Of a DNA stretch of 64,000 nucleotides, positions 13,131 to 54,863 are shown one piece after another (the stretch's first letter is position 1; every line of letters begins with the position of its first letter). The notes under the pieces are model-generated. The model had not been told where the DNA came from, did not search any database, and saw only the letters and a program-made list of their open reading frames with translations. Source of the DNA: a virus (lineage: Duplodnaviria; Heunggongvirae; Uroviricota; Caudoviricetes); IMG/VR virus record IMGVR_UViG_3300036453_000040. One strand, given 5' to 3'. Position numbers and translations under genes: made by a program.

Positions 13131-13136
13131 AAACCC

Positions 13137-13145: not shown

Positions 13146-13162
13146 TGTTGCCCGAGAATAAT

Positions 13163-15019: not shown

Positions 15020-15025
15020 AAAACA

Positions 15026-15034: not shown

Positions 15035-15039
15035 GAAGC

Positions 15040-15984: not shown

Positions 15985-16128
15985 AAAACAACTCTACCAC
16001 GGAACGAACCCAATATACAAGCCCAATATTCGCTTGCCGTCCGCATGGGTATTACTATCAGAGCACAAGCGAATATGCTGATGAGAGCATATTTAAAGCC
16101 TATTTTCTGCCCTGCATTTGACAAGGTA

Positions 16129-16137
16129 TGGTATAAT
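16129..16137 (+). promoter_or_regulatory. Extended -10 element (TGgTATAAT) upstream of the zinc-ribbon/Vsr-like gene
   Basis: ttgacaaggtatggtataattagaat. The ttgaca is too close (8 nt) to act as a -35, so activity would rely on the extended -10. Confidence 0.4.
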
Positions 16138-16180
16138 TAGAATATGCCTCACCTATACAACCACGGAGCTTGGTAACCAC

Positions 16181-34958: not shown

Positions 34959-35000
34959 CACCCCCTATACCTACTATGGTATAGGGGGTGCCTTGTTTTT
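34959..35000 (+). terminator. Rho-independent terminator (13-bp GC-rich stem plus T-run)
   Basis: caccccctatacc-tactat-ggtatagggggtg ccttgttttt. Confidence 0.55.
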
Positions 35001-36465
35001 AGCTGATGTTTTTGCTGATCCATTTAACGCCATCCGCTTGCGTTCTAAATGAATCAGAGTATTGAGCCTTGCGAGCTTTAGTTAAAGCTTCTTTCATCCA
35101 TGGGCCAGGCTTTCGAGTAGGGAATGCTGCCATCATGTTTTCGCCATTTACTAAGTCTTTCTCAGCAGAGTCAGCAATTCCCAGTTTTTCAGCTTTAGCT
35201 AAGATACGGCTCCCCTGCTTAGCGTCACCAGTTGCCATCTCATACAAAGCCCAATCTCGGATGCTTGTGTTATTGGGCATGTCATGAGACCAATTACGCA
35301 AAGAGGTTTTGCCTTGCTTTTGTGGAACTTTGAGTTCTGTAATATTAAAAGCATTATTTTTTTCTTTATCTCCCACGGTTGTAGTGGTAAGAAACTTACG
35401 CCTGTTCTTTGGGTTTAAGCGCTGAGAGATAGTCGCAGAAAGCAAAGCTACCCTCTTGTTCTGTGGTACTGAGCCATTGTCAATAAGTTTTTGCATGCGA
35501 CGAACATTACGGTACAATTTGGAATCGTTTATTTCTGTCAAACCATCAAAGTTTTGATCCCATTCTGTTTCTTTCAAAAGACGAAGGGCTTTATCTGTAC
35601 GCTTCCCCTTTTCGTACAATTTCTGGAATTCCATTTGTACTCGCTCAGTTGCAAGATCTGCAAACGCTGGTCGGAGTGATTTAGCTTTTTCAACAGTATC
35701 AGGGTGTAAGTCCATGCCGAAACGTGAAGCCATTTGTACTCCCCTGAGTACACGCAGCGGGTCCTCATCAAAAGCATCTGAAACATGACGTAGTTGTTTA
35801 GCTTCGATATCCTTAAGCCCACTATGCTTGTCAATGATAAAACCTAACTTATGAGAGTACATAAGAGCATTAATTGTGTAATCACGTCGAGCGGTTGCCT
35901 CTTCCAATGATAGGTCAGGGTTCACTTCTACAGCGAATCCTTTATGACCGTCGCCTATTTTGCTATCAGTGCGAGGTAAGGAAACATCAAAGTCTTCATC
36001 ATCAATACGAATTTTGAGTACTCCGAAAGATTTTCCTACCTCATCCACATGTCCAAGCTTACGGAGTGACTTAATAATAGAATCTGCCTGTCCGCCATAA
36101 ACCTCAATGTCGATATCCTTTGACGGCAAGCCTAGAAGTGCATCTCTAACGCTACCACCGACAATGTAAGGCGAGAAACCATCGTTTTCAAGCTGACGTA
36201 AGACTGCTACAGTATGAGGCGTTAGATCCATTACATAGGTTCTGACATTGCCTAGATCTTTTTTCTCATCATTGAGTGACTCAATTTTTGAAGTAGCATC
36301 TAAAAGCGCTGACTCACTTTTCTTACGTTGTTTATCTGTTAGCCCTTGGCCCAGCAGTCGAGCAGCATGATACTGCTTCTGAGCCTGTAGGTTTCGTTTC
36401 ATAACCCCATACGGGTTATTTTCGTTACAGCGATGACGGCCTTCATTATCAATTGCTCTACACAT
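34999..36465 (-). CDS. cca: Class II tRNA nucleotidyltransferase (CCA-adding enzyme or poly(A) polymerase family)
   Basis: Head-domain motifs YIVGGSVRDALLG...DIDIE, RRDYTINA and DPLRVLRGVQMASRFG. There is an 80-aa N-terminal extension. Confidence 0.75.
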   Translation of the reverse strand: MCRAIDNEGRHRCNENNPYGVMKRNLQAQKQYHAARLLGQGLTDKQRKKSESALLDATSKIESLNDEKKDLGNVRTYVMDLTPHTVAVLRQLENDGFSPYIVGGSVRDALLGLPSKDIDIEVYGGQADSIIKSLRKLGHVDEVGKSFGVLKIRIDDEDFDVSLPRTDSKIGDGHKGFAVEVNPDLSLEEATARRDYTINALMYSHKLGFIIDKHSGLKDIEAKQLRHVSDAFDEDPLRVLRGVQMASRFGMDLHPDTVEKAKSLRPAFADLATERVQMEFQKLYEKGKRTDKALRLLKETEWDQNFDGLTEINDSKLYRNVRRMQKLIDNGSVPQNKRVALLSATISQRLNPKNRRKFLTTTTVGDKEKNNAFNITELKVPQKQGKTSLRNWSHDMPNNTSIRDWALYEMATGDAKQGSRILAKAEKLGIADSAEKDLVNGENMMAAFPTRKPGPWMKEALTKARKAQYSDSFRTQADGVKWISKNIS

Positions 36466-36513: not shown

Positions 36514-37317
36514 CTAGTTTGCAGCTTTTAAACGCACTAAAGTTGCATGTTTTTTACTGATAGCTTCGTGGCTATTCTTATTAGGGTTATTCAATAACTG
36601 GTTTGGTACTACTTCTAAGATGACAAATCTCATATTACGAGGCAATAAGTGCTCTTGCTCTTTGTGAGCATTAGCATGCCCGAAGCTGGACAAGGGGGCA
36701 CCGCTAGACGTTTCGATCTCATAAACAATGTTTGAAAGACCAGAATCCTTACCATTCAAAAGCTCTAAGTATTGCTCACGATTCTTAATTCCGAACGTTC
36801 CCGTAGACGGAGGAAGATCCTCATACGATTCGGGCAAAAAATCAAATAACGCTTCAGGGTTAGTTGTCGTTGACATGTAGCCTTCAATTGTTAGCTCTTG
36901 CCCAACTTTAAACTTGTTGCTTACAAAATCAGCAGATTCATCTGGAGTTGCGAAGTTGTTATCAAATAATTTAGTTGCCCTATAAACAATCTTGCTCTTT
37001 GTGCCTTCTATTTTTTTATGTTTTGCTAATGCTGTATCAATTTTTGTCATCATCGTTTTAACGTCATGGCTTTGAACACCGTAAAGATGCTCCCCAATTT
37101 GGGTATAGGACTGGTTCGCATAAGAAGCTAGCGCTTCTTTTTCTGCATCAGTTAGCAAAAGAGAATAGTTCTGTGAGTCTCTAAGAGTTTTGTTGATATC
37201 ATTTGCAGGGTTAAAATTAAACGTACCTGTTTTTAAATCTAATGTACTTGCAAAATTAACTCCATGCACACGACAAATAGCAGGGATATTAGCTCGACAT
37301 GCAATGGGTTTAATCAT
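36514..37317 (-). CDS. C3-like (R-S-E class) mono-ADP-ribosyltransferase domain protein
   Basis: KIVYRATK provides the catalytic Arg. GYMSTTT is the STS motif. EQEHLLPRN is the Q/E-x-E motif followed by LLPR, as in C3 exoenzyme. There is no signal peptide. Confidence 0.6.
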   Translation of the reverse strand: MIKPIACRANIPAICRVHGVNFASTLDLKTGTFNFNPANDINKTLRDSQNYSLLLTDAEKEALASYANQSYTQIGEHLYGVQSHDVKTMMTKIDTALAKHKKIEGTKSKIVYRATKLFDNNFATPDESADFVSNKFKVGQELTIEGYMSTTTNPEALFDFLPESYEDLPPSTGTFGIKNREQYLELLNGKDSGLSNIVYEIETSSGAPLSSFGHANAHKEQEHLLPRNMRFVILEVVPNQLLNNPNKNSHEAISKKHATLVRLKAAN

Positions 37318-41093: not shown

Positions 41094-41663
41094 ATGGAAG
41101 AAAAAATTACCTCAAAAATTTTGTTGATCGCTTTACGAGCTAAGTTACCAAAAGCTGCTGTCCTAGGTGAAGTCACAATGGAAGACGAAGAGGAATCTCA
41201 TCGTATACGGACTGGATATGCAAAACGTTACCCAGCATGGAGAAAAAGTTATGACAAAAAAGGTTTAAGTTATGATGCAGTACTTCCTGAGGGCTATGAT
41301 TTCAGAAAAGCTGTTTCTATCCGTAGAATCGATGCTCTAATTTTCGAGGGTGATAAGAAAACTGCTATCGAGATCAAGATCTCCAGAGCTGACTTTTTTC
41401 GGGATACGCTAGAAAAGCGCTATGCATGGATGAAGCATACACATAGGTTTATATACTTGACACCTAAAGGGCTTATCAAAGTGGAAGAAGTTCCAGACGG
41501 GTGCGGCTTATGGGAGTATGAGAACGGCGTAATTACATCCGTTAAAAATGCTCGTGGCAATAAGAATATCCAAGATTTCCCTATATCAATGTATAAGTAT
41601 TTTGTTTGGCGAGCTTTCATTGCAGAACAAAAGCTAGCTAAACAACCATATAAAAGAAGGTAA
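41094..41663 (+). CDS. PD-(D/E)xK nuclease-fold protein, MmcB-like
   Basis: RIDALIF...AIEIKISRADFFRD gives D / E-x-K catalytic-like residues in the right spacing. Confidence 0.45.
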   Translation: MEEKITSKILLIALRAKLPKAAVLGEVTMEDEEESHRIRTGYAKRYPAWRKSYDKKGLSYDAVLPEGYDFRKAVSIRRIDALIFEGDKKTAIEIKISRADFFRDTLEKRYAWMKHTHRFIYLTPKGLIKVEEVPDGCGLWEYENGVITSVKNARGNKNIQDFPISMYKYFVWRAFIAEQKLAKQPYKRR

Positions 41664-41688: not shown

Positions 41689-42762
41689 TTAATCTTTAAT
41701 TGTAGCATCCCATGGTGCATTCAACAGCGCCTTAGAGAAGACTGATAATTTGTCCCTAAGTAGCGTGGTATACGCACGGTCGTAAACTGCTATATCTGCT
41801 TTTTTCTCTTTGCTATCACGATTAAAAAAGCTAGATATTTTTTCCAAAGCGCCTTTACTTTCTTGCGCTCGGTAAGAACTTAACCCGTTTCTAACGAGGT
41901 CGTTACGCATAGATTTAACGAGTGCTTCTTTTTCGCTATCTGTATAATCAGGGTTATTAACAAGGCGACCAATTGCGTTGTTATACTTACCTACGCTAAT
42001 ACCACTGTTACCCACGGCAAAATCAGTATCCAATTCATTATAATCAAGCCCGTCAAGATGAACCGTTTTATCTTCCCAGTGAGCTATATCTTCTTTTTGA
42101 AGAAAAAATGCATTTCTGCTTCTAGTAGCTAAAGCAACAGCATTATCTACTTTAGTATGAAATTCGTCATAATTAGCTTGTAATCGAGTAACGTTATCTT
42201 GAGTTTTAGCGTAATCTAACGCTGAAGTTGCACGTGCTTCTTCTTCAGTTGCGCCTTTACCTTCATAAGTTCCATTCTTCCATTGCTCTTCAAAAACTTG
42301 AGGGCTGTTATAGCTATGCGCTTCTTTGGCGAAATCAAGCATTTGTTTGCTATCTTCATATTTAGCTAAAAGTTGCTCTTGGCCTAAAGCTCTATTGTAG
42401 TTTTTACGTATTGCTCCTAAAGAACTTGCGCTTGGATGTTTAGTGCTCTCTAAAAGATCTGGTTTCATCCTATTTGAGATATTTAACTCATGACCAAAAG
42501 AGGGAGTACTTGAGTCAACAGCTGCGGGGTCCACCTTGTTAAAAACTGAATCAGCTATCTCCTTGCTCAGGGCCGCGCGTTCTACCGCGTCAATTTTGCC
42601 ATCAGCGGATGCAAGATCAATGGAAGCTTGATGACGTTCTAAGCTTTTAGTCGTTTCACCTATCCTATGGTTACTTGCACCGACATATTTACACGCTCTT
42701 TTAGTAGCTTTGCAGGGTTTCCATCCCGTAGGAGTATTATGCTGTAGTTGTTTAGTTGCCAT
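41689..42762 (-). CDS. hypothetical protein
   Basis: 357-aa ORF. Confidence 0.5.
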   Translation of the reverse strand: MATKQLQHNTPTGWKPCKATKRACKYVGASNHRIGETTKSLERHQASIDLASADGKIDAVERAALSKEIADSVFNKVDPAAVDSSTPSFGHELNISNRMKPDLLESTKHPSASSLGAIRKNYNRALGQEQLLAKYEDSKQMLDFAKEAHSYNSPQVFEEQWKNGTYEGKGATEEEARATSALDYAKTQDNVTRLQANYDEFHTKVDNAVALATRSRNAFFLQKEDIAHWEDKTVHLDGLDYNELDTDFAVGNSGISVGKYNNAIGRLVNNPDYTDSEKEALVKSMRNDLVRNGLSSYRAQESKGALEKISSFFNRDSKEKKADIAVYDRAYTTLLRDKLSVFSKALLNAPWDATIKD

Positions 42763-42828: not shown

Positions 42829-43491
42829 TTAGCTTAAAAGAGAAGTGAACCCGTTTAAAGCGAAGTCATCTCGTCCTCGCCATGATGCGCTCGTTTGAAC
42901 GTGGTTAGCTCGTACAAATTTTGCAACATGTTGTCCAAACTCGCTATATGGAATCATGCCCGCATCACGCAACACGAACCCTTCTGAGACTGTGGAGTCT
43001 AAGACCTTGCCCCATGCTTGGGTAGCTTCCTTATAGCTTGTACCGCGATACAGTGTTGGTACAACGGGCAGTCCCAGCATGCTAGCGAACTCACTCATGT
43101 CATCGAAAGAGAGCAAGTTGTTGTTCTCATCCCAAATCCCGAATACATATAAAGGCCCCTCAAGTGAATCGTAAGCTACTGACCTGCGAGCTTGAAGTGA
43201 CTCTCCTGTTACTCGCCAACCCGTAGGAATATCAAAGCGTACCTGACTCCAGATTCGCTTCGCTAACGTATCCCAAGCGTGAGTGCCAGAATCAAGAGAG
43301 CGAGCATGGAAATAATCAGGGTAAAGGGAGACGTTTCCGCCGTCAAGTTTCTCAGTTACTACAAGTTCAATGCCGCTCTCTAAATAAGCAAGGGCAGAAG
43401 CTGAAGCCATCTTGTCATCACTGGTCATGCCTTCAGAAAAGGGCAAGTGTGGCGTACGAGGATATTTATAACGCATAGTTGATTCACTCAT
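42829..43491 (-). CDS. ATP-dependent RNA ligase family protein (KxDG nucleotidyltransferase, minimal Rnl type)
   Basis: KYPRTPHLP. Motif I TEKLDGGN. Motif IV-like EGFVLRD. Motif V-like AKFVRANH. Confidence 0.6.
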   Translation of the reverse strand: MSESTMRYKYPRTPHLPFSEGMTSDDKMASASALAYLESGIELVVTEKLDGGNVSLYPDYFHARSLDSGTHAWDTLAKRIWSQVRFDIPTGWRVTGESLQARRSVAYDSLEGPLYVFGIWDENNNLLSFDDMSEFASMLGLPVVPTLYRGTSYKEATQAWGKVLDSTVSEGFVLRDAGMIPYSEFGQHVAKFVRANHVQTSASWRGRDDFALNGFTSLLS

Positions 43492-43699
43492 GAACTTACC
43501 CTTTCTTATGGCTGGTTTGTATTAAATAACCATACCATACGAATGGTTGGTTTACAACAGGCAGTTAACTTCATTTTGCAAGTTGAGCTTTTTAGTTGAA
43601 CACTTCAATTAATCAGAGCTTAAAATCTTTCACTCCCATATTTCTGTAGCCCCTCCAGAAATATGGGAGGGGCTACAGAAATACAGCGAATTAAACTAC

Positions 43700-45193
43700 C
43701 TACTTCACTAGTGGAAATAAGACAGTATCCCTGATTCCCTTGTTAGAAAGAATCATAATTAAACGGTCAATTCCCATGCCAATACCTCCAGTTGGAGGCA
43801 TTCCGTATTCTAATGCTTGCAGGAAGGACTCATCTAGAGCCATGGCTTCATCGTCACCACGCCCAGCAAATCTAGCTTGTTCAACTAGACGCTCGCGTTG
43901 GATAACAGGGTCAACAAGTTCTGAGTACCCTGTTGCTACTTCCATACCAGCAATGTAAAGGTCCCACTTTTCTACTACTCCAGCGATAGAACGATGATTA
44001 GCAACTAGCGGCGAGCTATCAACAGGGTAATCGAAGACAAAAGTAGGCAAGGTAAGGTTAGGCTTAACGTAAGATTCCCACAGTTCTTCAACTAGCTTTC
44101 CTCTTGTTGGAGCTTGAATCTTGATATTGCGAAGATCAGCAAGGCTTACAATTTCGCTAAGCGGAGTTAGAGGAGTAATTTCAACCCCAGAGGCTTCACT
44201 CAAAGACTCATACAAAGAAATGCGCTGCCACGGGTCGTTTAAGCTCCCGAGGTTCTTCTTGACTTCAGCTAGGGTTTCAGCTGTAACATATCTACCAATA
44301 TCATGGGCAGACTCCTTGATAACGGCCTCTACACGATCTGCCATCCTATTGTAATCAGAGTAAACTTCATAAGCTTCAAGCATAGTAAACTCAGGAGAGT
44401 GAGTTGAATCCATTCCCTCGTTACGGAAGTTCTTGTTAATTTCAAATACTCGGTCCATGCCGCCAACAACAGCTCTCTTCAAAAAAAGCTCTGGAGCAAT
44501 ACGTAGGTAAAGGTCTTCGTCAATAGCATTGCTATGGGTTACGAACGGGCGTGCAGAAGCGCCCCCATGGAGAGTTTGCAAGATAGGGGTTTCGACTTCA
44601 AGGTAGTCATCCTCCTCGAACATTCTACGAATTCTTGAAATAACCTTTGAACGAAGAATTGCTTGGTTGCGAGCTTCACTACTGAGAATCAGGTCAAGGT
44701 AACGTTGACGAGCGCGAGTTTCATCATTCAAGTCAGAATGCTGGTTGGGCAGAGGCCGAATAGCCTTAGAAATCACACCCCAAGTAACCACAAAGATAGA
44801 CAGTTCACCTGTCTTAGAGGTGGAAACAAGGCCCGTAACAGTTACATGGTCACCAAGGTCAACCTTCTGCCTCCAAACAAGGTGTGACTCATCGCCAATT
44901 TCAGCACGAGAGATCAAAAGTTGCATTTGATCTCCACGGCCAGATTGAATAACAGCAAAAGAAATGCGACCTGCGTTGCGAATACTCATAAGTCGGCCAG
45001 CAATAGTGACAGTATCTTCAGTCTTGGTATCAGCTTCAAGGTCAGTATAGTCCATACGGATCTTCGCGATGCTATCAACAGCTTCCGCAAAGTTAACAGG
45101 ATAGGGGTTATGCCCCATCTCAATTAGGTTCGCTCGCTTCTCCAGCCTTACAAGCATCTGGTCTGACGTGTCGGGAGCGCGTGTTGAACTCAT
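43700..45193 (-). CDS. lysS: Lysyl-tRNA synthetase, class II
   Basis: N-terminal OB anticodon-binding domain. Class II motifs. C-terminal GGIGMGIDRLIMIL. Confidence 0.9.
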   Translation of the reverse strand: MSSTRAPDTSDQMLVRLEKRANLIEMGHNPYPVNFAEAVDSIAKIRMDYTDLEADTKTEDTVTIAGRLMSIRNAGRISFAVIQSGRGDQMQLLISRAEIGDESHLVWRQKVDLGDHVTVTGLVSTSKTGELSIFVVTWGVISKAIRPLPNQHSDLNDETRARQRYLDLILSSEARNQAILRSKVISRIRRMFEEDDYLEVETPILQTLHGGASARPFVTHSNAIDEDLYLRIAPELFLKRAVVGGMDRVFEINKNFRNEGMDSTHSPEFTMLEAYEVYSDYNRMADRVEAVIKESAHDIGRYVTAETLAEVKKNLGSLNDPWQRISLYESLSEASGVEITPLTPLSEIVSLADLRNIKIQAPTRGKLVEELWESYVKPNLTLPTFVFDYPVDSSPLVANHRSIAGVVEKWDLYIAGMEVATGYSELVDPVIQRERLVEQARFAGRGDDEAMALDESFLQALEYGMPPTGGIGMGIDRLIMILSNKGIRDTVLFPLVK

Positions 45194-45203
45194 TTTATAC
45201 CTT

Positions 45204-45249
45204 TCAAAAAAATATGGTTACATCCCATTATAGCGGATGTAACCATATT
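45204..45249 (-). terminator. Terminator hairpin (15-bp stem) with a T-run on the minus strand, between the Nudix gene and the lysS start
   Basis: aatatggttacatcc-cattatagc-ggatgtaaccatatt preceded on the plus strand by aaaaaaa. Confidence 0.45.
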
Positions 45250-45276
45250 TTGCAAGCTTGCTATTTTAGTGTTAAT

Positions 45277-45813
45277 TTAAAGAAAAGTTTTTGTAGCTAC
45301 TTTTTCCCAGCTTAGGATACCTTCAGTGATTAGCCATTCCGCAATATGTTTAGTATCAAAACCAATCTCATCACTTTTCAAATTGCTAATTTCTTCTAAG
45401 TCAAGCCAGCGAATATCAGTCGATTCACCTTCTACAGGAAGACCACGAGGAAGTTGGTCAGTTACAAAACCATACCCAAGGTCAGTATGCATGTGTTTGC
45501 CTTCTGCGTCAACTTTATGCGTGTTATGAAGAATAGGAATCGGGTGAATTGTTACGCTGGGGAGGAACTTAATGCGATGATATGGTTGAAGAATCTCAAG
45601 CTGATTAATATCATAGCCTGTTTCCTCAAGCAGTTCATGCGTAATAGCTTCCCATGGCGTCTCGTTTAGTTCAATATGGCCACCTGCTTGTAGAAGTTTG
45701 TGGAATTTTTTATGCATATGCAGAAAAAGTTTAGGTTTCGTATCACCTGTGTAAACGATGAAAGCGCTAGTAGTATGGTCGTGTTGTCCGTCTAAGTCAT
45801 GAATATGTGCCAT
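45277..45813 (-). CDS. Nudix hydrolase
   Basis: Nudix box GGHIELNETPWEAITHELLEETGY. Confidence 0.8.
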   Translation of the reverse strand: MAHIHDLDGQHDHTTSAFIVYTGDTKPKLFLHMHKKFHKLLQAGGHIELNETPWEAITHELLEETGYDINQLEILQPYHRIKFLPSVTIHPIPILHNTHKVDAEGKHMHTDLGYGFVTDQLPRGLPVEGESTDIRWLDLEEISNLKSDEIGFDTKHIAEWLITEGILSWEKVATKTFL

Positions 45814-45921
45814 TATAAACTAATTATAGCAGACAATAGTTAACTTCAAGTACATTAATAGCTTTGTAAAGCGATTAGTCATGGTAAGATAGTAACCTAA
45901 CTAATTATTTTGGAAGAACTT

Positions 45922-46452
45922 ATGTTTAAAACAACTCTTTACCTTGATTTTGACGGCGTACTTAACGCAAAAAAGCCCGCGCATGCTTTAATTTCCAAAT
46001 TTGCAATTGCAATCAAAGACAGTTTGCATCTTGCTTCCATTAACCATATTACTTTCAGTCCCTACGTAATCCAAGATCTAGATAAGTTACGCGTGCAGTA
46101 TCAACTTGAGCTGGTTTGGTTAACCACGTGGAACGAGAAAGATAATGTTCTCAAGTTGTCGGAACCACTTGGTGGCTTACGTAACGGACGGGTACTTGCG
46201 GCTAATCTTAATCAAAAAGCGTTAAACAAGAAAGAATGGACTCAGTGGAAAGCTGACGCAATCATTGCTGACCAGCGGGCCACTCCTCGGCCATTTGTTT
46301 GGGTTGATGATAATGCTCACCAGTTTCATAGCGAAGTTGTTAACGCTGAAACGAAAATAGTTCCTAGTCTTTTCCTCACTCCAGTAAGTTTAACTGGTTT
46401 AACTGTCAGGAATTTAGAGGAGCTAAAAGATTTTCTTAAGTCAATCGGTTAA
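45922..46452 (+). CDS. HAD-superfamily phosphatase-like protein
   Basis: LYLDFDGVLNA contains the DxDG motif. Start moved from the TTG in the ORF track to the ATG preceded by GGAAGAA. Confidence 0.45.
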   Translation: MFKTTLYLDFDGVLNAKKPAHALISKFAIAIKDSLHLASINHITFSPYVIQDLDKLRVQYQLELVWLTTWNEKDNVLKLSEPLGGLRNGRVLAANLNQKALNKKEWTQWKADAIIADQRATPRPFVWVDDNAHQFHSEVVNAETKIVPSLFLTPVSLTGLTVRNLEELKDFLKSIG

Positions 46453-46631
46453 AGCTGATTTGAGGTAAGGTAAGCCACTGCAAACATGGAAGCAGCAAAA
46501 GATAGATAAGCCATTATTATTACAGCACGAGGTTTAGTTTTTTTCAGATTTAAAGCTTGTACTAAAAACAGTATAACAATTAAAATAGCAATGAATCCAA
46601 TAAGCAAACTAAGGATGGAAAGAACAACCAT
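46449..46631 (-). CDS. Small two-TM membrane protein
   Basis: 60-aa hydrophobic ORF. Confidence 0.3.
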   Translation of the reverse strand: MVVLSILSLLIGFIAILIVILFLVQALNLKKTKPRAVIIMAYLSFAASMFAVAYLTSNQL

Positions 46632-46921
46632 TATTCTTCTATGTCCCTCTGCTTTAACTCATAACCAAGTTCTTCAAGACGTTCTATAATCTCTGAAAAT
46701 GTTAGCGGTCGCTCATAAAGAAGCCCGTTCCGCGCTATAACCGAAATAAGAGCCTCAGAATCAGCTAGCTCTTCCTCACTACGTTGAAATATAGTCTCTA
46801 GGACTTTAGGGTATGAGTTTGGGTCATTGCTTGCGTTTTCAGCAAACTCAGCTCTCTCTACGGGTGCGCCAAAAGAGACCGCTAGTTCTTTTGCTATATT
46901 CAGCTTTGTCATTGTATTCAT
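46631..46921 (-). CDS. hypothetical protein
   Basis: 96-aa ORF. Confidence 0.4.
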   Translation of the reverse strand: MNTMTKLNIAKELAVSFGAPVERAEFAENASNDPNSYPKVLETIFQRSEEELADSEALISVIARNGLLYERPLTFSEIIERLEELGYELKQRDIEE

Positions 46922-47043
46922 TACTAAGTAAGTTTATCATAAATAGTATTTTATGCCGCGAGAATTCAATCTTCTTAAGATTTGACTTTTCAACTATGAG
47001 GAGTTATACTAAAACTAAGAGACCAGAGAGAGAAACCCACATC

Positions 47044-47487
47044 ATGAGCATTACCATTAGCGAGAAGTGCGATACCACCCGTGGTTCATACGCAACTAAG
47101 CATGGTATTGTCGTTCTACCTGCCAAAAATATTGGCCTCTCGAAGAAGGAACGTGCTTTTCTTGACCTTGCCTTTAAGATGGCTGAGAGCAGTGAAGTTG
47201 AAAACCGCCACGGCGCAGTGGTAGTTAAGAACGGACGCGTTCTCTCTCTTGGTATCAACAAGTGGCGCAACAAGGGCCTCGAATGTGGCCGTGAAGAATA
47301 TCAGGCAGTGTTGACCACTCACGCTGAGATTGATGCCCTGAGCCGTGTAGCAAACCCTGCTGGCGCGGTACTCTATATCGCACGGGTTGGTGTCGGTGGA
47401 GAAGAACGCATCTCCCGTCCCTGCGTGCGTTGCATGGCTGTTATCGAGAAGCTTGGTATCAAGCGCATCATTTATACTGTCGATTAA
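47044..47487 (+). CDS. Cytidine/deoxycytidylate deaminase family protein (dCMP deaminase or TadA-like)
   Basis: Zinc-binding motifs HAEIDAL and PCVRCMAVI. Start chosen at the ATG inside the longer track ORF. Confidence 0.7.
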   Translation: MSITISEKCDTTRGSYATKHGIVVLPAKNIGLSKKERAFLDLAFKMAESSEVENRHGAVVVKNGRVLSLGINKWRNKGLECGREEYQAVLTTHAEIDALSRVANPAGAVLYIARVGVGGEERISRPCVRCMAVIEKLGIKRIIYTVD

Positions 47488-47736: not shown

Positions 47737-48783
47737 CTATTCTTTAGCGATGTATTTGTAGTACCATGTTGAGGGCAGAGTAATCCATAGTTCATGAAGT
47801 GCATCAATGTGTTCAATGTTGGATATTGGCACTTCGTTAACTTGAAGAGAATACAGGAACGCGCTATCCCAGCCCTTACGCATGAAAATATTCACCAGTT
47901 CACGATATGAGATAGCTAAGCCATCATGGAAACAATGGCCTTCGTCTTCTAACGCTATCTTGATCCTATTCGTCAGAAGCATGAATGCCCCGTCCGCCCT
48001 TAAGATGCAAGAATAATCAATGTACGCGGCAATATTTTCTTCGGTTGTATCGAACCCATCCTCTTTGAGATGTGATAAAACAAGTTCCCTCATGGAGAGT
48101 AGCGTACCGATAAACGCACGAGCGGGGATGCTGCTTGTGTCTCTTGATTCGATGATCGCGCTTGAATTCATCATATCAATGGCAGCGCGAGCTAACGGGG
48201 TATCATTGTTTTCAAGAAGAAATCGCGTAATTTTTAATGAATCTTTCACTTCTCCAAGCTGCTTATCGTAAGTGAAAAGGGACAGCATATTTTGAGCTTG
48301 ACCGAGCGAGTATTCCTCGCTGTACTCTCCCTGTAGAAACTCAGATCGTATATCCGAGGATGCTGCTGAATACGCTTCAGCTATGACTTGCCTACGGTCA
48401 GTTTTAACTGTATGGACATATATGTCACTATTAGATACGGGGAGATAGAGGTACCTTGCAAAAGTGCTCGTATCTTGCATATGAAGCTTAGTCCTGTCAT
48501 GTTCAACACGTATGTTAGCCAGCGAATAATACTTTGACAAACCGAGGTCATCTAACGCTTCATAGATAAGAAGAAGCTGCTCTGCTGAGCTAACGATTGC
48601 CTCATCAGTAAGCTCTTGCCTGCGTAAACGGATCAGAGCTACTCTTCGTACTGACATAGCAAAGGTCTCGTTAAGCTGGCATTCTTTAACACTGGGGTTG
48701 AAAGGGGAAACTAAAATCGTAGGGGCAATGGCCGAGCCTATCGTGTCCTTTCTCATGTTCACTTTCTTTGTGTTAGAAACCAT
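47737..48783 (-). CDS. hypothetical protein, paralog of the 48815..49696 gene
   Basis: C-terminal regions are alignable between the two neighbouring genes (IFMRKGWDSAFLYSL...IEHIDALHELW versus IFVKNGWSPQFVFAL...IEMLEALFSIY). Confidence 0.5.
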   Translation of the reverse strand: MVSNTKKVNMRKDTIGSAIAPTILVSPFNPSVKECQLNETFAMSVRRVALIRLRRQELTDEAIVSSAEQLLLIYEALDDLGLSKYYSLANIRVEHDRTKLHMQDTSTFARYLYLPVSNSDIYVHTVKTDRRQVIAEAYSAASSDIRSEFLQGEYSEEYSLGQAQNMLSLFTYDKQLGEVKDSLKITRFLLENNDTPLARAAIDMMNSSAIIESRDTSSIPARAFIGTLLSMRELVLSHLKEDGFDTTEENIAAYIDYSCILRADGAFMLLTNRIKIALEDEGHCFHDGLAISYRELVNIFMRKGWDSAFLYSLQVNEVPISNIEHIDALHELWITLPSTWYYKYIAKE

Positions 48784-48814
48784 ATTCTCATATTACAGTA
48801 GTGAAACGTTAAAG

Positions 48815-49696
48815 TCAAACTTGCTCCGAGATATGCGCATGAAACCATGCATAAGGTGCAGAGTTATAGATCGAAAATAATGCTTCCAGCATTTCGATAG
48901 AACTAATCTCAGTACGCGAGAGATAAAGCGCAAAAACAAATTGTGGTGACCATCCATTTTTTACGAAAATGCAATATAGTTCTTCGGTTATGTCAACCGC
49001 TAGCTTTTTCTGTATTTCCTGTATAAGGGTATAACCGTTAAGTTCACTCCCATGAACGAGGCAAGCAAAGTCTACATATTGGCTTAAGTTTTCAGGCGTG
49101 ACTTCTACATCATAAGAGGCCATGGTCACTTCTGCTTTGCTTACTGCTCCCGCAAAATGCTGGAGGAAAAGCGATCTCGCCATTCTTAACGCACCCATAG
49201 GAATAACCATACCGCTTTGAGAGGGAGCTAAGGTAAAAAGGTGCCGCGTTTGTTCATCGTTGCTACTCACGTCAGCTAGGGCCAAGGTATCAAAAGCTAT
49301 GAAAGACAACAAACCTGCGCTTAATCTTACTGTTTCGCATTTCTCATCAAATTGAAATAACGAAAAAATCAAGCTCGAAGAAGTCCAGTTTTCGTCATCA
49401 ATGTAAACGTTGTTCTCTTCAGAAGTATAAGGTCTCAGTACTGAATGGGTATCGCTTATTTGAGTTGTTTCTAAATACATGTTAACAACTTGCATTCGAT
49501 CTGAAGCGATAAACGGCTTCAAGTAACCATCGTACTCGTCAACATACATTTCATCTACGCCGAATGAAGCTATCTTAACCATTTCCTGAAAATTAAAATA
49601 ACCAATAAGGCCATCTGCCGCGAAAGCATTTAGAAGACAAGTATAGTTTGTGATTGAAGCTTCTTCCGTTACGGGTGTTGCATCTAAATATGCCAT
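48815..49696 (-). CDS. hypothetical protein, paralog of the 47737..48783 gene
   Basis: See above. Confidence 0.5.
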   Translation of the reverse strand: MAYLDATPVTEEASITNYTCLLNAFAADGLIGYFNFQEMVKIASFGVDEMYVDEYDGYLKPFIASDRMQVVNMYLETTQISDTHSVLRPYTSEENNVYIDDENWTSSSLIFSLFQFDEKCETVRLSAGLLSFIAFDTLALADVSSNDEQTRHLFTLAPSQSGMVIPMGALRMARSLFLQHFAGAVSKAEVTMASYDVEVTPENLSQYVDFACLVHGSELNGYTLIQEIQKKLAVDITEELYCIFVKNGWSPQFVFALYLSRTEISSIEMLEALFSIYNSAPYAWFHAHISEQV

Positions 49697-49867
49697 ATGA
49701 TATATCGTACCTTATATGAGCAAGTTACTCCCTTAATTAGGAGTTGGACAGATATATTTGGGCAAAAAAATTGGCAGTAGGGAGGTCACGTCCCTACTGC
49801 CAAAACTTTGGGGTTCTTTCTGCCTAGCGATTAAAAGCTGACCCGCTAGGCAGAAAGTTTGTTATCG

Positions 49868-50992
49868 CTAGAAGCGAAGCTTAGCTTCCTTTAGGTAAGG
49901 AGCGTACTCGCGGAGTACGGAACCAATGAGTAGAGCGGCCTCAGACTTGGACTCAGACGAGGTGCGAACCTTGTCCATGAGCGGGAAGGCAAGAGCCGTG
50001 CAAACATCGGCTTTCTCACCGATTTTAGCAGCAGCGCCGAAGACCTGCGCGCTAGCCTTGACGTTCTCGCTGTTCATACGACCGAGAATCATGGAAAGAA
50101 TGACATAAACCTCACTAGAGGAACGTGATTTCCAGTCAACCTTTTCGGGGTTAGCAAGAACATCATCATAGTTAGGGAGGTTCAAGCTCTGCTCAAACAC
50201 GGAGAACTGCTGTGCGGCCTTTTCGCCTACGGCACCACGAGTAGCAATAGCACGCGGCGAGCTACCTTCAAGGTACTGTAGCATGGAAACGAGGTTATCC
50301 CAAGAACGGTACGAGGGCCATGCCTTACCTGCTTCTTCGGCATTCTTAGGCATCGAGTTAATGAGAGTCGGGTAAGCCTTAAGGAACGCGACAACCTTAG
50401 CTCGTTCAACGCTTTCACGTTCGCTTACTACGTTGCCCCAAGCAACGGTCATTCCTTCAAGGAAGTCGTTGTTGTCAGGCTCGAAGTGAATGTGAATGAA
50501 ACGGTTAGCCATGGGAGCGGCAAGCGTCCAGCCGTCAGCGGCATCAGAAGCTTCGTTAGCTGCGGCGATCATCCAAACATCATCAGAAAGCGTGTGCTTA
50601 CCAATCATGCGACCCTGGAAAAGCGAAAGGCCAGCAGCCTGCATGGACGGCACAGCGTTAGAAATCTCGTCAAAGAAAATAATTCCCTTGCCAGTACGCA
50701 GAAGTTCTTCCGCCCAGAAGTTGAGAGTGTTATCAGTGATGGTAATTTCGGTACCATCGGGCAGGATTACCTGCTTAAGAGCAGGCAGACCCTGCAAGTC
50801 GGTGCTGTCCATAGTGGACAGAAGCAGAACGTAGAGGGGGAGGTCATACTTTGCTGCAAGAGCGCGAACTAGCGCGGTCTTGCCAACACCTGGAGCACCC
50901 CAGAGAATTGTAGGAACTCCAGACTTGCGACCCGCATCAAGTACGGAAATCGTGTTCTGCATGTTTTTCGAGCGACCAATGTAAGTACCCAT
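49868..50992 (-). CDS. MoxR-like AAA+ ATPase
   Basis: Walker A motif GAPGVGKTAL. Walker B motif IIFFDEIS. Size and organisation of MoxR/AAA_5 ATPases. Confidence 0.75.
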   Translation of the reverse strand: MGTYIGRSKNMQNTISVLDAGRKSGVPTILWGAPGVGKTALVRALAAKYDLPLYVLLLSTMDSTDLQGLPALKQVILPDGTEITITDNTLNFWAEELLRTGKGIIFFDEISNAVPSMQAAGLSLFQGRMIGKHTLSDDVWMIAAANEASDAADGWTLAAPMANRFIHIHFEPDNNDFLEGMTVAWGNVVSERESVERAKVVAFLKAYPTLINSMPKNAEEAGKAWPSYRSWDNLVSMLQYLEGSSPRAIATRGAVGEKAAQQFSVFEQSLNLPNYDDVLANPEKVDWKSRSSSEVYVILSMILGRMNSENVKASAQVFGAAAKIGEKADVCTALAFPLMDKVRTSSESKSEAALLIGSVLREYAPYLKEAKLRF

Positions 50993-51096
50993 TAAATTCG
51001 TGACCTTTCGTTTGGGTTTTTCTTCTTACCTTAAGTATATAGTAAGAGTATGCCCAATGTCAAGCTGAAACGAGTTTTAGTTTAAACTTTTTTAAA

Positions 51097-51516
51097 TCAC
51101 TCACTACTTGAGGTTTTGCCTGTTGCACTATCACGAGTCAGAGTAATATCTAGCTTGCTATCCGTTATAGTAATCACATAATTATTCCAACCACCTACTA
51201 CAGTGATCTTGCTCGTATCGTAGGTAGGAGGAGTTATTGGAACTACAGACAAGTCTTCAGCTATAACATCCTCCACAAGATATGTTTGAATTTCAATGTT
51301 TGCTACGCTTAGGTCACTATTCAGTGTTGCAATTTTTGCTTCTTCCGCAGGTGTTCGACTCTGCTGCACATTAACTTCTTGCACGATAGGCGTAACGTTA
51401 GAACATCCAGATAATGTTACAGCGCTTGCGCTTATCATTATGAAAGCTACTACATGCATGATCTTTTTCTTCATATTAGAAGTATCGGGCAAATCACGAT
51501 AAAGCGCGCGGGTCAA
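51097..51516 (-). CDS. Lipoprotein. Paralog of 51574..52278 with one copy of a beta-rich module
   Basis: Signal peptide plus lipobox LSGC. Module DLSVVPITPPTYDTSKITVVGGWNNYVITITD. Confidence 0.55.
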   Translation of the reverse strand: MTRALYRDLPDTSNMKKKIMHVVAFIMISASAVTLSGCSNVTPIVQEVNVQQSRTPAEEAKIATLNSDLSVANIEIQTYLVEDVIAEDLSVVPITPPTYDTSKITVVGGWNNYVITITDSKLDITLTRDSATGKTSSSE

Positions 51517-51573
51517 TAATCAAAATGCTTAGGTGACGTTTTGATTATTGACCCGCACTAAATGTGAACCAGC

Positions 51574-52278
51574 TTATAGCTTTATCTCCAGAATCCTACC
51601 AGTCTCACTATCATACGTAGAAGAAAGGCCTAACTCTGTATCAGTTATCGTGATTGTATAATCCATCCATCCTCCCTCTACGACAACAACACTAGTATCA
51701 TACGTAGGCGAGGTTACGGGGACTGCTGAAAGGTCATTAGCAATAGGATCATTAACGAGATAGGTAGCCAGATCTATGTGGACATTTTTGAGGTCAGAAG
51801 TTAAAACTTTGGCTTGGTCTAGCTCTGCGTCAACTTCTTCAACGGCGCTCTCTTCTATTTCTGCTAGTGCTGGCTCCTCTGCTTGTTTTTCTGCGGGTTC
51901 TCCCACTCGTTCGCTAGTAGTTATACCGTTTTCGGTGATCGTCAGCATGCCGTCATTCCAAACTACCAGAATGTCATTGTCCTTATCCTCCAACGTAATC
52001 GTATATTTTTCCCAGTTACCTTCCACAGTGATGAAGCTAGTAATAAATGTTGGCCGAGAAATATCAACCATGGATAGGTCTTCTGCTCTCGGATTTTCAG
52101 CGAGATATGCAAGGACTTCTTGATTAGCATGGAGAACATCTTGTTGAATTGAAACCATACCTGTTGGTTCTGTTAATTGTATTGTTTCAGGTGTCGTTGT
52201 GTTAGAACAACCTGAAAGAGTTATGGCGCTTGCGCCTATCATTATTGCAGTTACTACATGTATAATTTTTTTCTTCAT
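51574..52278 (-). CDS. Lipoprotein with two copies of the same module
   Basis: Near-identical signal peptide and lipobox. Modules DLSMVDISRPTFITSFITVEGNWEKYTITLED and DLSAVPVTSPTYDTSVVVVEGGWMDYTITITD. Confidence 0.55.
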   Translation of the reverse strand: MKKKIIHVVTAIMIGASAITLSGCSNTTTPETIQLTEPTGMVSIQQDVLHANQEVLAYLAENPRAEDLSMVDISRPTFITSFITVEGNWEKYTITLEDKDNDILVVWNDGMLTITENGITTSERVGEPAEKQAEEPALAEIEESAVEEVDAELDQAKVLTSDLKNVHIDLATYLVNDPIANDLSAVPVTSPTYDTSVVVVEGGWMDYTITITDTELGLSSTYDSETGRILEIKL

Positions 52279-52427
52279 ATTAGAGGTATCGGTTTAATCG
52301 CAACAAGGAGCTAAGCAAAAACCAAAATACTTTGTATCTATTACCATGTTAAAATAGTCAGTATCTAGAGCATCAAATTAGGGGTATGGAGTGACAGCAT
52401 TATGCTGTCACTCCATACCCCTAATAA

Positions 52428-54707: not shown

Positions 54708-54863
54708 TCGTATTTCTCCTTGTTTCTCTCTACTTATATTATACGATAGAACCTAGCGTTTGTCAAGCGCAAACTAAAACTAAAGAGTTTATGAACTACG
54801 TTTGACTCTATGAAGTTCTTGTGCTATGATTAACGTAGAGAAGATAAAGAAAAGAGAAACAAC

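What the first reader, a model, noticed from the sequence alone, without database searches (positions are those of the whole stretch)
42829..47487. RNA ligase, Nudix hydrolase, HAD phosphatase and CDA-fold deaminase clustered around lysS
A minimal KxDG RNA ligase lies immediately downstream of lysS. A Nudix hydrolase lies immediately upstream, separated only by a terminator hairpin that abuts the lysS start. A DxDG HAD phosphatase and a cytidine/deoxycytidylate-deaminase-fold protein follow within 2 kb. The class-II CCA enzyme is 7 kb away. Ligase plus end-healing phosphatase plus CCA enzyme is the classical toolkit for repairing tRNAs cleaved by anticodon nucleases. The T4 Pnkp/Rnl1 system repairs tRNA-Lys cleaved by PrrC. 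Co-location with lysyl-tRNA synthetase is therefore suggestive of a tRNA-Lys surveillance and repair neighbourhood.
Basis: inference. Interest (0 to 1): 0.55.

Follow-up and report, generated by a model that had tools for sequence, protein, structure and literature searches.

The report
RNA ligase neighbourhood; lysS link coincidental
The genes are real and the small ligase belongs to a family tied to RNA-break repair in other bacteria, but it sits next to the lysyl-tRNA synthetase gene only in a few very close relatives, so nothing points to a dedicated tRNA-Lys repair system.

Summary
The hairpin in front of lysS is also real.

The ligase is intact. It is a member of a large family of mostly stand-alone ~215-aa adenylyltransferase domains. 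Elsewhere these are fused to, or overlapped by, polynucleotide-kinase, HD and metallophosphoesterase end-healing enzymes. A role in RNA repair is therefore plausible.

The link to lysS is not supported:
- lysS lies next to the ligase only in relatives with 88% and 79% ligase identity, and in the 79% relative a 3-kb insert already separates them.
- In 20 further dereplicated lineages with at least 5 kb on each side, lysS is never within reach.
- lysS orthologues at 70% and 63% identity have unrelated neighbours.
- lysS is bracketed by two strong hairpins, so it is probably its own transcription unit.
- The window contains no 5'-kinase, anticodon nuclease or tRNA gene.
- The deaminase resembles dCMP deaminases, not TadA.

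Only HAD (5/20) and Nudix (2/20) recur loosely near the ligase. Verdict: ordinary, a new member of a known kind.

The parts
42829..43491 (-). Stand-alone ATP-dependent RNA-ligase-type adenylyltransferase, 220 aa (nucleotidyltransferase domain only)
   Evidence: PF09414 83.5 bits; phrog_24030 'RNA ligase' 1.2e-50; motifs I-V invariant; AF2 pLDDT 82.8; Foldseek best matches T4 Rnl2, Naegleria Rnl5 and archaeal Rnl3 at E about 1e-6
43636..43686 (-). 21-bp GC-rich hairpin directly after the lysS stop, with no U tract; separates lysS from the ligase
   Evidence: Fold of 43492-43699: -66.9 kcal/mol, z = -5.8. A 22-bp hairpin of different sequence occupies the same place in L091
43700..45193 (-). Class II lysyl-tRNA synthetase (lysS), 497 aa
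   Evidence: PF00152 278 bits plus PF01336; passes the TIGR00499 and NF001756 cut-offs; nearest named relatives are Microbacteriaceae LysRS at 57-60% identity
45209..45251 (-). Terminator-like hairpin plus U7 between Nudix and lysS, overlapped by a sigma-70-like TTGCAA-17-TATAAT site
   Evidence: -25.3 kcal/mol, z = -4.9; two compensatory pair changes in L091; promoter-like site 45255-45227 matches 10 of 12 positions
45277..45813 (-). Nudix hydrolase, 178 aa; substrate unknown; His replaces Arg in the Nudix box
   Evidence: PF00293 45.2 bits; best PDB match is the uncharacterised 3f6a; no NCBIfam model reached its cut-off; family sequences
45922..46452 (+). HAD-superfamily phosphatase, 176 aa from the ATG (180 aa from the TTG at 45910), transcribed divergently from Nudix
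   Evidence: PF18143 HAD_SAK_2 42.8 bits against 27.5; catalytic DxD, T, K and DD invariant in 9 homologues
47041..47487 (+). CDA-fold deaminase, 148 aa, dCMP-deaminase-like
   Evidence: PF00383 42.9 bits; phrog_174 dCMP deaminase 2.4e-20; PDB T4 dCMP deaminase 8e-4; no TadA model matched
41094..41663 (+). 189-aa protein that is the tightest recurrent neighbour of the ligase (35-79 nt away in relatives); possible PD-(D/E)xK nuclease
   Evidence: phrog_5429 'DNA repair protein' 4.3e-29; adjacent to the ligase in L002-4, L009, L089 and L091-93 in two orientations; the D80...E93-I-K95 motif is invariant. The nuclease reading is inference
41689..42762 (-). 357-aa ORF of unknown function, a window-specific insertion between the ligase and the 189-aa gene
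   Evidence: No Pfam, PHROG, NCBIfam or PADLOC hit; absent from L089 and L091
38483..40015 (-). Orphan Type III Mod-like N6/N4 DNA methyltransferase, recurrent 1.7-3.5 kb from the ligase in four lineages
   Evidence: PF01555 84.9 bits; PADLOC MTase_III 1e-69; distances
36514..37317 (-). ADP-ribosyltransferase (exoenzyme type), 49 nt upstream of the CCA-type gene; relatives carry a WGR-PARP in this position
   Evidence: PF03496 47.9 bits; PARP in L002, L005-7, L036 and L038
34999..36465 (-). Class II CCA-adding / poly(A) polymerase family nucleotidyltransferase, 488 aa
   Evidence: PF01743 76 bits plus PF12627 and PF13735. The best NCBIfam match is CCA tRNA nucleotidyltransferase, but below its cut-off (163.9 against 290). 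Homologues form a continuous gradient in small genomes

Best explanation
This is a stretch of the chromosome of a small-genome bacterium; relatives carry the same genes on contigs of 0.68-1.0 Mb. A Patescibacteria/Saccharibacteria-like identity is my inference and was not verified.

A conserved, stand-alone RNA-ligase-type adenylyltransferase sits in a variable, insertion-prone neighbourhood. By family-level evidence, the ligase most likely reacts with ATP to form ligase-AMP at K48 and seals 3'-OH/5'-phosphate breaks in RNA. Sealing has not been demonstrated for any member of this family.

The HAD phosphatase (RNA-repair-type family) and the Nudix hydrolase recur loosely on the same side of the ligase in several lineages. 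They may prepare ends: the HAD by removing a 3'-phosphate, the Nudix by trimming a 5'-triphosphate or a capped end to a 5'-monophosphate. That step is inference.

lysS is an ordinary lysyl-tRNA synthetase gene. It is transcribed as its own unit between two hairpins, and it lies between Nudix/HAD and the ligase only in this narrow clade. The space between Nudix/HAD and the ligase holds different, unrelated genes in other lineages. The juxtaposition with lysS is therefore an accident of gene order, not a sign of tRNA-Lys specificity. The deaminase (dCMP-deaminase-like) and the CCA-type enzyme are most simply housekeeping genes.
For: Ligase identity and integrity; model and fold.

Family-level link of the ligase to end healing:
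- Homologues at 29-30% identity (L075-L088) and the Enhygromyxa homologue at 44% (L008) are followed within 33 nt, or overlapped, by an HD + AAA_33 protein. This matches the Runella ligase/HD-Pnk cluster described in PMC6097658.
- The homologue in L055 is overlapped by a metallophosphoesterase gene.
- Five family members are fused to AAA_33/tRNA-ligase-type kinase domains.

HAD: assigned to PF18143 with catalytic residues invariant.

Synteny, in 20 dereplicated lineages with at least 5 kb on both sides: lysS 0, HAD 5, Nudix 2.
- L019 has Nudix-Nudix-HAD co-directional, 4.4 kb upstream of the ligase.
- The genes between HAD/Nudix and the ligase are mostly unique to each locus.
- In L091 lysS is separated from the ligase by a PFL-like gene and its activase.
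- lysS orthologues in L094 and L095 have other neighbours.

Hairpins on both sides of lysS.

lysS meets the curated lysS cut-offs and has the genome's typical GC3 of 0.40.
Against: - The window clade does keep Nudix-lysS-ligase together, so a lineage-specific functional link cannot be excluded from sequence alone.
- No 5'-kinase was found in the window. The classical heal-and-seal pathway is therefore incomplete here, and the ligase may act on something else.
- According to PMC6097658, the Runella ligase-like protein of the HD-Pnk cluster formed ligase-AMP but sealed none of the tested 3'-OH/5'-PO4 substrates. I did not test directly that it belongs to this family.
- The HAD/Nudix recurrences come from related genomes and could be inherited gene order rather than selection for linkage. 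HAD is never closer than 2.4 kb to the ligase.
- Nudix, HAD and the deaminase could equally be nucleotide-pool enzymes.
Confidence: 0.6

Rival explanations
1. The ligase, the HAD phosphatase and the CCA enzyme form a tRNA repair toolkit functionally coupled to lysS, repairing tRNA-Lys cut by an anticodon nuclease, as T4 Pnkp/Rnl1 does against PrrC.
For: The ligase and HAD families are of RNA-repair type. The order Nudix-lysS-ligase is kept in L089, and approximately in L091. The CCA-type gene stays 6-7 kb from the ligase in L036, L089 and L091.
Against: - lysS is near the ligase in 0 of 20 other lineages.
- lysS orthologues lie elsewhere in L094 and L095.
- Hairpins insulate lysS on both sides.
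- No kinase, tRNA gene or PrrC/RloC-like protein was found in the window.
- The ligase is closer in fold to Rnl2/Rnl5/Rnl3 (E about 1e-6) than to Rnl1 (E about 1e-3).
- An aminoacyl-tRNA synthetase plays no part in any known tRNA repair pathway (background knowledge).
Confidence: 0.05
2. Nucleotide-pool and salvage reading. Nudix, HAD and the deaminase are small-molecule enzymes: an NTP/NDP-X pyrophosphatase, a nucleotidase and a dCMP deaminase. They serve a bacterium that depends on salvage, and they have nothing to do with the ligase.
For: - The deaminase is closest to dCMP deaminases.
- The window also encodes an NT5C deoxynucleotidase, a class Ib ribonucleotide reductase and NrdI.
- The Nudix protein matches no RNA-specific model above its cut-off.
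- Nudix and HAD are direct neighbours in the window clade and in L019, whereas the ligase is kilobases away.
Against: - The HAD falls in PF18143, a family defined from predicted RNA-repair proteins, rather than in a nucleotidase family.
- HAD lies within 10 kb of the ligase in 5 of 20 lineages, against about 0.5 expected for a single-copy gene in a 0.8-Mb genome (the expectation is my estimate).
- In L012/L017 the HAD gene is next to a metallophosphoesterase of the same cluster as the one that overlaps the ligase in L055.
Confidence: 0.25
3. NAD+/ADP-ribose-linked strand-break response island. The ligase works with the adjacent 189-aa nuclease-like protein, the orphan methyltransferase and a PARP/ADP-ribosyltransferase. 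ADP-ribosylglycohydrolase and Nudix would clear ADP-ribose products. The substrate could be DNA or RNA.
For: - The 189-aa gene is the tightest neighbour of the ligase, in two different orientations.
- The methyltransferase lies 1.7-3.5 kb away in four lineages, and WGR-PARP 3.3-9.1 kb away in five.
- The window has two ADP-ribosyltransferases and one ADP-ribosylglycohydrolase.
- The Runella cluster likewise joins a ligase to a methyltransferase and to the NAD+-dependent Tpt1.
Against: - All these links are loose and come from related genomes.
- The methyltransferase looks like an ordinary DNA Mod subunit.
- The transferase in the window is of the exoenzyme (toxin) type, not PARP or Tpt1.
- The nuclease assignment of the 189-aa protein rests on one PHROG label and a motif, with no Pfam or PDB support.
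Confidence: 0.1

Closest known systems
Runella slithyformis ligase / HD-Pnk / Tpt1 / MTase-HIT candidate RNA repair cluster (PMC6097658)
   Same: A small ATP-dependent ligase-like protein. Homologues of the window's ligase (L008, L075-L088) are followed or overlapped by an HD + P-loop kinase gene, exactly as described for Runella. A methyltransferase and an NAD+-using transferase lie nearby in both.
   Different: The window has no HD-Pnk or any kinase. Its methyltransferase is a DNA Mod type and its transferase is of the exoenzyme type, not Tpt1. I could not compare the Runella ligase sequence directly.
T4 Pnkp / Rnl1 repair of tRNA-Lys cut by PrrC
   Same: An ATP-dependent KxDG ligase and a DxD HAD-type phosphatase are encoded in the same region.
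   Different: The phosphatase and the ligase are separate genes on opposite strands, 2.4 kb apart. There is no 5'-kinase domain and no anticodon nuclease. The ligase fold is closer to Rnl2/Rnl5/Rnl3 than to Rnl1. The only connection to lysine is the neighbouring lysS, and that is not conserved.
T4 Rnl2 and Naegleria gruberi NgrRnl (Rnl5) nick-sealing RNA ligases
   Same: They share the nucleotidyltransferase fold and motifs I, Ia, III, IIIa, IV and V. They are the best structural matches (E 5e-7 to 4e-6, 14-18% identity) and belong to the same Pfam family, PF09414.
   Different: The window protein is the bare catalytic domain. It lacks the C-terminal domain of Rnl2 and the N-terminal OB domain of Rnl5. 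TM-score is only about 0.5. It has family-specific conserved ends (YPRTPHL near the N terminus, WRxRDDF near the C terminus). No PDB entry matches by sequence.
'Swiss Army Knife' RNA repair proteins (source of Pfam PF18143, HAD_SAK_2)
   Same: The HAD protein passes the PF18143 gathering score and keeps all four HAD catalytic motifs.
   Different: Here the HAD is a stand-alone 176-aa protein, not a domain of a multidomain repair protein. Its activity is untested. The original paper was not in the library.

Membership tests
ATP-dependent RNA ligases (covalent nucleotidyltransferase superfamily; Pfam PF09414) | Motif I KxDG with the adenylylated lysine | tested here: met
   E-K48-L-D50-G-G-N; K48, D50 and G51 are invariant in 20 homologues
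ATP-dependent RNA ligases (covalent nucleotidyltransferase superfamily; Pfam PF09414) | Motifs Ia, III, IIIa, IV and V, and a score above the family threshold | tested here: met
   R64-S65, E97-S98, F117-G118-W120, E170-G-F-V-R175 and K191-x-V-R194 are invariant or nearly so; PF09414 83.5 bits against 27
ATP-dependent RNA ligases (covalent nucleotidyltransferase superfamily; Pfam PF09414) | Nucleotidyltransferase fold | tested here: met
   AF2 model pLDDT 82.8; the top 38 Foldseek PDB matches are RNA ligases, apart from an Aquifex 'putative DNA ligase' entry and the ASFV DNA ligase, at E 5e-7 to 9e-4
ATP-dependent RNA ligases (covalent nucleotidyltransferase superfamily; Pfam PF09414) | Accessory nucleic-acid-binding domain (Rnl2 C-domain, Rnl5 N-terminal OB, Rnl1/Rnl3 C-domains) | tested here: not met
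   At 220 aa the Pfam domain covers residues 42-193. Most relatives are 206-230 aa; some carry an N-terminal extension of about 130 aa that this protein lacks
ATP-dependent RNA ligases (covalent nucleotidyltransferase superfamily; Pfam PF09414) | Strand-sealing activity on 3'-OH/5'-PO4 RNA | not testable with these tools
   Needs biochemistry. The Runella ligase-like protein of the HD-Pnk cluster self-adenylylated but sealed none of the tested substrates (PMC6097658)
T4-type tRNA-Lys heal-and-seal system (Pnkp + Rnl1 against PrrC) | 5'-OH polynucleotide kinase | tested here: not met
   No AAA_33/Pnk-type hit among the ORFs of at least 100 aa scanned with Pfam; eight of the ten tandem paralogues at 6703-15984 and ORFs overlapping longer genes were not scanned. 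tblastn with an HD-Pnk sequence found nothing. The rest of the genome was not seen
T4-type tRNA-Lys heal-and-seal system (Pnkp + Rnl1 against PrrC) | Anticodon nuclease (PrrC/RloC) as the damaging partner | tested here: inconclusive
   No PADLOC hit of that kind among 10 local proteins, but only 64 kb of the genome is available
T4-type tRNA-Lys heal-and-seal system (Pnkp + Rnl1 against PrrC) | Rnl1-type ligase | tested here: not met
   Rnl1 structures match at E about 1e-3, against about 1e-6 for Rnl2, Rnl5 and Rnl3
Proposed 'tRNA-Lys repair neighbourhood' (ligase functionally linked to lysS) | Ligase-lysS linkage conserved across related genomes | tested here: not met
   Present only in L089 and, with a 3-kb insert, in L091. 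Found in 0 of 20 other dereplicated lineages. lysS orthologues in L094 and L095 have other neighbours
HD-Pnk / ligase RNA repair cassette | HD-Pnk gene adjacent to the ligase | tested here: not met
   Present beside distant homologues (L008, L075-L088). Absent from the window and from all 20 close-subfamily lineages
HAD-superfamily phosphatases, Pfam PF18143 (HAD_SAK_2) | Motif I DxD nucleophile, motif II T/S, motif III K, motif IV DD, and a score above the family threshold | tested here: met
   D9-F-D11, T69, K110 and D129-D130 are invariant in 9 homologues; 42.8 bits against 27.5. Fold not confirmed: the single-sequence model failed with pLDDT 35
Bacterial class II lysyl-tRNA synthetase | Curated equivalog score; anticodon-binding OB domain plus class II core | tested here: met
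   TIGR00499 487.7 against 427.6; NF001756 596.1 against 468; PF01336 plus PF00152
tRNA adenosine deaminase TadA (the tRNA-related reading of the deaminase) | Match to curated TadA models | tested here: not met
   The only NCBIfam hit is ComEB (dCMP deaminase type) at 17.8 bits. PHROG and PDB neighbours are dCMP deaminases

The most novel reading that the evidence does not exclude
In this small-genome lineage the bare ligase domain, the PF18143 HAD phosphatase and the His-variant Nudix hydrolase could form a kinase-independent heal-and-seal pathway. The Nudix enzyme would generate the 5'-monophosphate from triphosphate, NAD-capped or ADP-ribosylated ends, and the HAD enzyme would clear the 3'-phosphate. 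The pathway would be tied to the ADP-ribosyltransferase/PARP genes that recur nearby. The slot between these genes would act as an insertion hot spot that has captured an actinobacterial-like lysS.
Probability: 0.1. Interest if true: 0.5.

Novelty: new member of a known kind. Interest (0 to 1): 0.2.

Why it matters
As proposed, a tRNA-Lys repair module wired to lysS would have been a new kind of translational quality control. The comparative evidence does not support it. What remains is a well-conserved member of a large ligase family: about 2,500 clusters at 50% identity, whose close subfamily is 57-70% identical across related small genomes. No sealing substrate has been demonstrated for this family. 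Its conservation in genomes of about 0.7-1 Mb suggests it does something these organisms need. The recurrent fusions to polynucleotide kinases give a clear biochemical starting point. That is of moderate interest to RNA-repair specialists, but it is not a discovery specific to this window.

Tried and rejected
- Phage origin: rejected. There is no DNA match in the phage collection beyond a short lysS stretch. The window carries bacterial housekeeping genes: RadA, class Ib RNR plus NrdI, LemA and flotillin.
- tRNA genes and Rfam families, including T-box and lysine leaders: none in the window.
- Sequence searches of the PDB with the ligase, its profile, the HAD protein, its profile and the 189-aa protein profile found nothing significant.
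- The one genome-contig scan was run with the single ligase sequence and returned only Enhygromyxa salina. The organism of the window therefore could not be named. Cluster look-ups gave no names either, and the CCA search reached a named organism only at 35% identity.
The single-sequence model was unusable (pLDDT 35), so no fold search was run.
- Recent transfer of lysS from Actinobacteria: considered because the nearest named relatives are Microbacteriaceae. However, lysS has the genome's normal GC3. In a neighbour-joining tree the low-GC sequences form a basal grade rather than nesting inside the actinobacterial clade. Timing and direction are therefore unresolved, and I make no claim.
- Defence-system models (PADLOC) on 10 local proteins: only the methyltransferase matched convincingly.
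- The 2016 paper that defined the Swiss Army Knife proteins is not held in the library.

Full report
WHAT IS IN THE SEQUENCE

On the minus strand the order is:
- Nudix (45813 to 45277);
- lysS (45193 to 43700);
- RNA ligase (43491 to 42829);
- an unknown 357-aa ORF (42762 to 41689).

A HAD phosphatase gene (45910/45922-46452) is transcribed divergently from Nudix. A CDA-fold deaminase gene follows on the plus strand.

Pfam assigns these genes as follows:
- ligase: PF09414, 83.5 bits against a cut-off of 27;
- lysS: PF00152 plus PF01336;
- Nudix: PF00293;
- HAD: PF18143 (HAD_SAK_2, "HAD domain in Swiss Army Knife RNA repair proteins"), 42.8 bits against 27.5;
- deaminase: PF00383.

The deaminase ORF listed from 46813 overlaps the gene on the other strand. 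The ATG at 47041 gives 148 aa, close to the 146-aa orthologue in a relative. The CCA-type class II nucleotidyltransferase is at 34999-36465, 6.4 kb from the ligase.

The hairpin between Nudix and lysS is real. It spans 45209-45251, has 17-18 bp, folds at -25.3 kcal/mol (z = -4.9) and is followed by seven U. A relative keeps it through two compensatory base-pair changes. A sigma-70-like TTGCAA-17-TATAAT site overlaps it, with the -10 hexamer in the loop.

A 22-bp hairpin of unrelated sequence occupies the same position in relative L091. lysS is thus bracketed by stem-loops and is probably its own transcription unit.

WHAT GENOME THIS IS

The window is not from a known phage. It encodes bacterial housekeeping genes:
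- RadA, a flotillin, a MoxR ATPase and a Type III-like methyltransferase;
- LemA and a class Ib ribonucleotide reductase with NrdI;
- a 1666-aa CAP/Fn3 surface protein, an NT5C nucleotidase and an ADP-ribosylglycohydrolase.

It has no tRNA gene and no Rfam match. Homologues of its ligase, CCA enzyme and LysRS sit on contigs of 0.57-1.0 Mb. This suggests a small-genome bacterium. A Patescibacteria/Saccharibacteria-like identity is my inference; I could not obtain a name.

THE LIGASE

It is intact and belongs to a large family. There are 930 homologues in the 5.8-billion-protein set, and the best 120 are 212-243 aa long and 57-92% identical. A profile search finds 2,479 cluster representatives at 50% identity.

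All nucleotidyltransferase motifs are invariant in 20 homologues: K48xDG, RS, GES, FGxW, EGFVxR and KxVR. So are family-specific ends, YPRTPHL near the N terminus and WRxRDDF near the C terminus.

The AlphaFold model is confident (pLDDT 82.8). Its best PDB matches are as follows:
- T4 Rnl2, Naegleria Rnl5, archaeal Rnl3 and fungal Trl1 ligase domains at E about 1e-6 to 1e-4;
- T4 Rnl1 at about 1e-3;
- DNA ligases at 2e-4 (ASFV) or weaker.

It consists of the catalytic domain alone, without the accessory domains of the characterised families.

Family-level context points to RNA end repair:
- Homologues at 29-30% identity (L075-L088) and the Enhygromyxa salina homologue at 44% (L008) are followed within 33 nt, or overlapped, by an HD + AAA_33 kinase gene. 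This is the arrangement described for the Runella slithyformis ligase/HD-Pnk/Tpt1 cluster (PMC6097658).
- One homologue (L055) is overlapped by a metallophosphoesterase gene.
- Five family members are fused to AAA_33 or tRNA-ligase-type kinase domains.
- One caution: the Runella paper reports that its ligase-like protein formed ligase-AMP but sealed none of the tested substrates. I did not compare that sequence with the window's ligase.

THE OTHER GENES

HAD. The four catalytic HAD motifs are invariant in nine homologues. Its fold could not be modelled.

Nudix. This protein belongs to a distinct small family with His in place of the Nudix-box Arg. Its nearest solved structures are uncharacterised, and no curated model reached its cut-off. 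Its substrate is unknown.

Deaminase. It is closest to dCMP deaminases and does not match TadA models.

CCA-type enzyme. Its homologues form a smooth identity gradient in related small genomes, as expected of a vertically inherited housekeeping gene. It scores below the curated CCA cut-off, so CCA-adding and related activities are not distinguished.

lysS. It passes the curated lysS cut-offs.

THE SYNTENY TEST

I collected 105 loci around ligase and lysS homologues. I searched 87 of them with 35 window proteins, and all of them with HMMs for HAD, Nudix and the ligase.

Close relatives:
- L089 (ligase 88% identical) has the same gene order as the window.
- L091 (79%) has deaminase-HAD-Nudix-lysS, then a PFL-like gene and its radical-SAM activase, then the ligase.

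Other lineages. I dereplicated at 95% ligase identity and required at least 5 kb on both sides, which left 20 lineages with ligases 50-68% identical to the window's. Within reach of the ligase there was:
- lysS in 0 of 20;
- HAD in 5 of 20, always on the 5' side, 3.8-8.5 kb away, with a second copy 5.2 kb downstream in L046;
- Nudix in 2 of 20, plus two shorter contigs, often as a tandem pair.

From the lysS side, orthologues at 70% (L095) and 63% (L094, on a 683-kb contig) have entirely different neighbours.

No gene is a constant partner of the ligase. The tightest is a 189-aa protein (phrog_5429 "DNA repair protein", with a D...ExK motif). It lies 35-79 nt from the ligase, in two orientations, in one sub-clade. 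A Type III-like methyltransferase and a WGR-PARP (an exoenzyme-type ADP-ribosyltransferase in the window) recur a few kilobases away in four to five lineages.

The genes lying between HAD/Nudix and the ligase are mostly unique to each locus. That interval behaves as an insertion-prone slot. In the window it holds lysS, and in L091 it holds lysS plus the PFL pair.

MOST LIKELY EXPLANATION (confidence about 0.6)

lysS is an ordinary synthetase gene whose position beside the ligase is a lineage-specific accident of gene order.

The ligase is a general nucleic-acid (most likely RNA) break-sealing enzyme of a family associated elsewhere with end-healing kinases and phosphoesterases. HAD and Nudix may be its loose end-healing partners here; this step is inferred, not shown.

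Nothing indicates tRNA-Lys specificity. The window has no kinase, no anticodon-nuclease-like hit and no tRNA gene.

RIVALS

- Nudix, HAD and the deaminase are nucleotide-pool enzymes unrelated to the ligase: about 0.25. This fits the NT5C, RNR and dCMP-deaminase-like genes nearby.
- An NAD+/ADP-ribose-linked break-response island comprising the ligase, the 189-aa nuclease-like protein, the methyltransferase, PARP/ART, ARH and Nudix: about 0.1.

COMPARISON WITH KNOWN SYSTEMS

The ligase meets the motif, score and fold criteria of the RNA ligase superfamily. It lacks the accessory domains that define Rnl1, Rnl2, Rnl3 and Rnl5.

The locus fails the defining features of a T4-type tRNA-Lys repair system: there is no kinase, no nuclease and no conserved link to lysS. 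It also fails those of the HD-Pnk cassette, because there is no HD-Pnk gene.

It is best filed as a new member of a known kind: a stand-alone PF09414 ligase with a PF18143 HAD nearby.

SIDE OBSERVATION ON lysS

Its nearest named relatives are Microbacteriaceae LysRS at 57-60% identity. Only about 11 of the top 120 hits have a low-GC amino-acid composition like the window's.

The gene's GC3 is typical of the window. In a rooted neighbour-joining tree the low-GC sequences form a basal grade to the actinobacterial clade. An old exchange with Actinomycetota is possible, but its direction and timing are unresolved.

SCORING

Interest is 0.2.

The most novel reading still open is a kinase-independent Nudix/HAD/ligase heal-and-seal pathway linked to ADP-ribosylation. 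I give it about 0.1 probability and 0.5 interest if true.

Noticed in passing
window 6703-15984 (-): Ten tandem paralogous genes of about 264-314 aa, 26-64% identical to each other, with no Pfam match for the three tested. This is a large local gene-family expansion of unknown function.
   Followed up: partly
window 43700-45193 (-): The nearest named relatives of this LysRS are Microbacteriaceae (Actinomycetota) enzymes at 57-60% identity. Only about 11 of the top 120 hits have a low-GC composition like the window's. GC3 is genome-typical, and the tree places the low-GC sequences as a basal grade. An old exchange with Actinomycetota is possible; the direction is unresolved.
   Followed up: partly
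window 43636-43686 (-) and 45209-45251 (-): lysS is bracketed by two strong hairpins. The upstream one carries a promoter-like -10 hexamer in its loop. The downstream one has no U tract, and in L091 a hairpin of different sequence takes its place.
   Followed up: partly
window 28533-29573, 36514-37317, 58870-59655: One ADP-ribosylglycohydrolase and two exoenzyme-type ADP-ribosyltransferases lie within 31 kb. One transferase is 49 nt upstream of the CCA-type gene on the same strand. Relatives carry a WGR-PARP next to the methyltransferase instead.
   Followed up: partly
window 47737-56543: Two distantly paralogous unknown genes (348 and 293 aa; E 3e-13) precede a MoxR AAA ATPase, a 759-aa HATPase_c_3 protein and a DUF2201 metallopeptidase/VWA protein. 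The same MoxR/HATPase/DUF2201 trio lies beside the ligase in L005-7/L015 and L036.
   Followed up: partly
L005:10100-10669 (also L006, L007, L015): A 189-aa ORF 1.4 kb from the ligase matches only the catalytic-core part of class II Asp/Lys/Asn tRNA synthetases (PF00152 28.8 bits against 25). It is a mini aaRS-like protein of unknown role, and it has no detectable similarity to the window's LysRS by tblastn.
   Followed up: partly
proteins P0337, P0345, P0347 (relatives of window 34999-36465): Relatives of the CCA-type enzyme at 37-38% identity are fused to an AAA_33/Zeta-toxin-type P-loop kinase (640-646 aa). This is an RNA-repair-like architecture not present in the window.
   Followed up: no
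window 41689-42762 (-): This 357-aa ORF has no match in any library. It lies between the ligase and the 189-aa gene only in the window; L089 and L091 lack it. It is a very recent insertion.
   Followed up: partly
window 16118-17872 (+): A 584-aa protein with four DUF4379 treble-clef zinc-finger repeats sits next to the class Ib ribonucleotide reductase genes.
   Followed up: no
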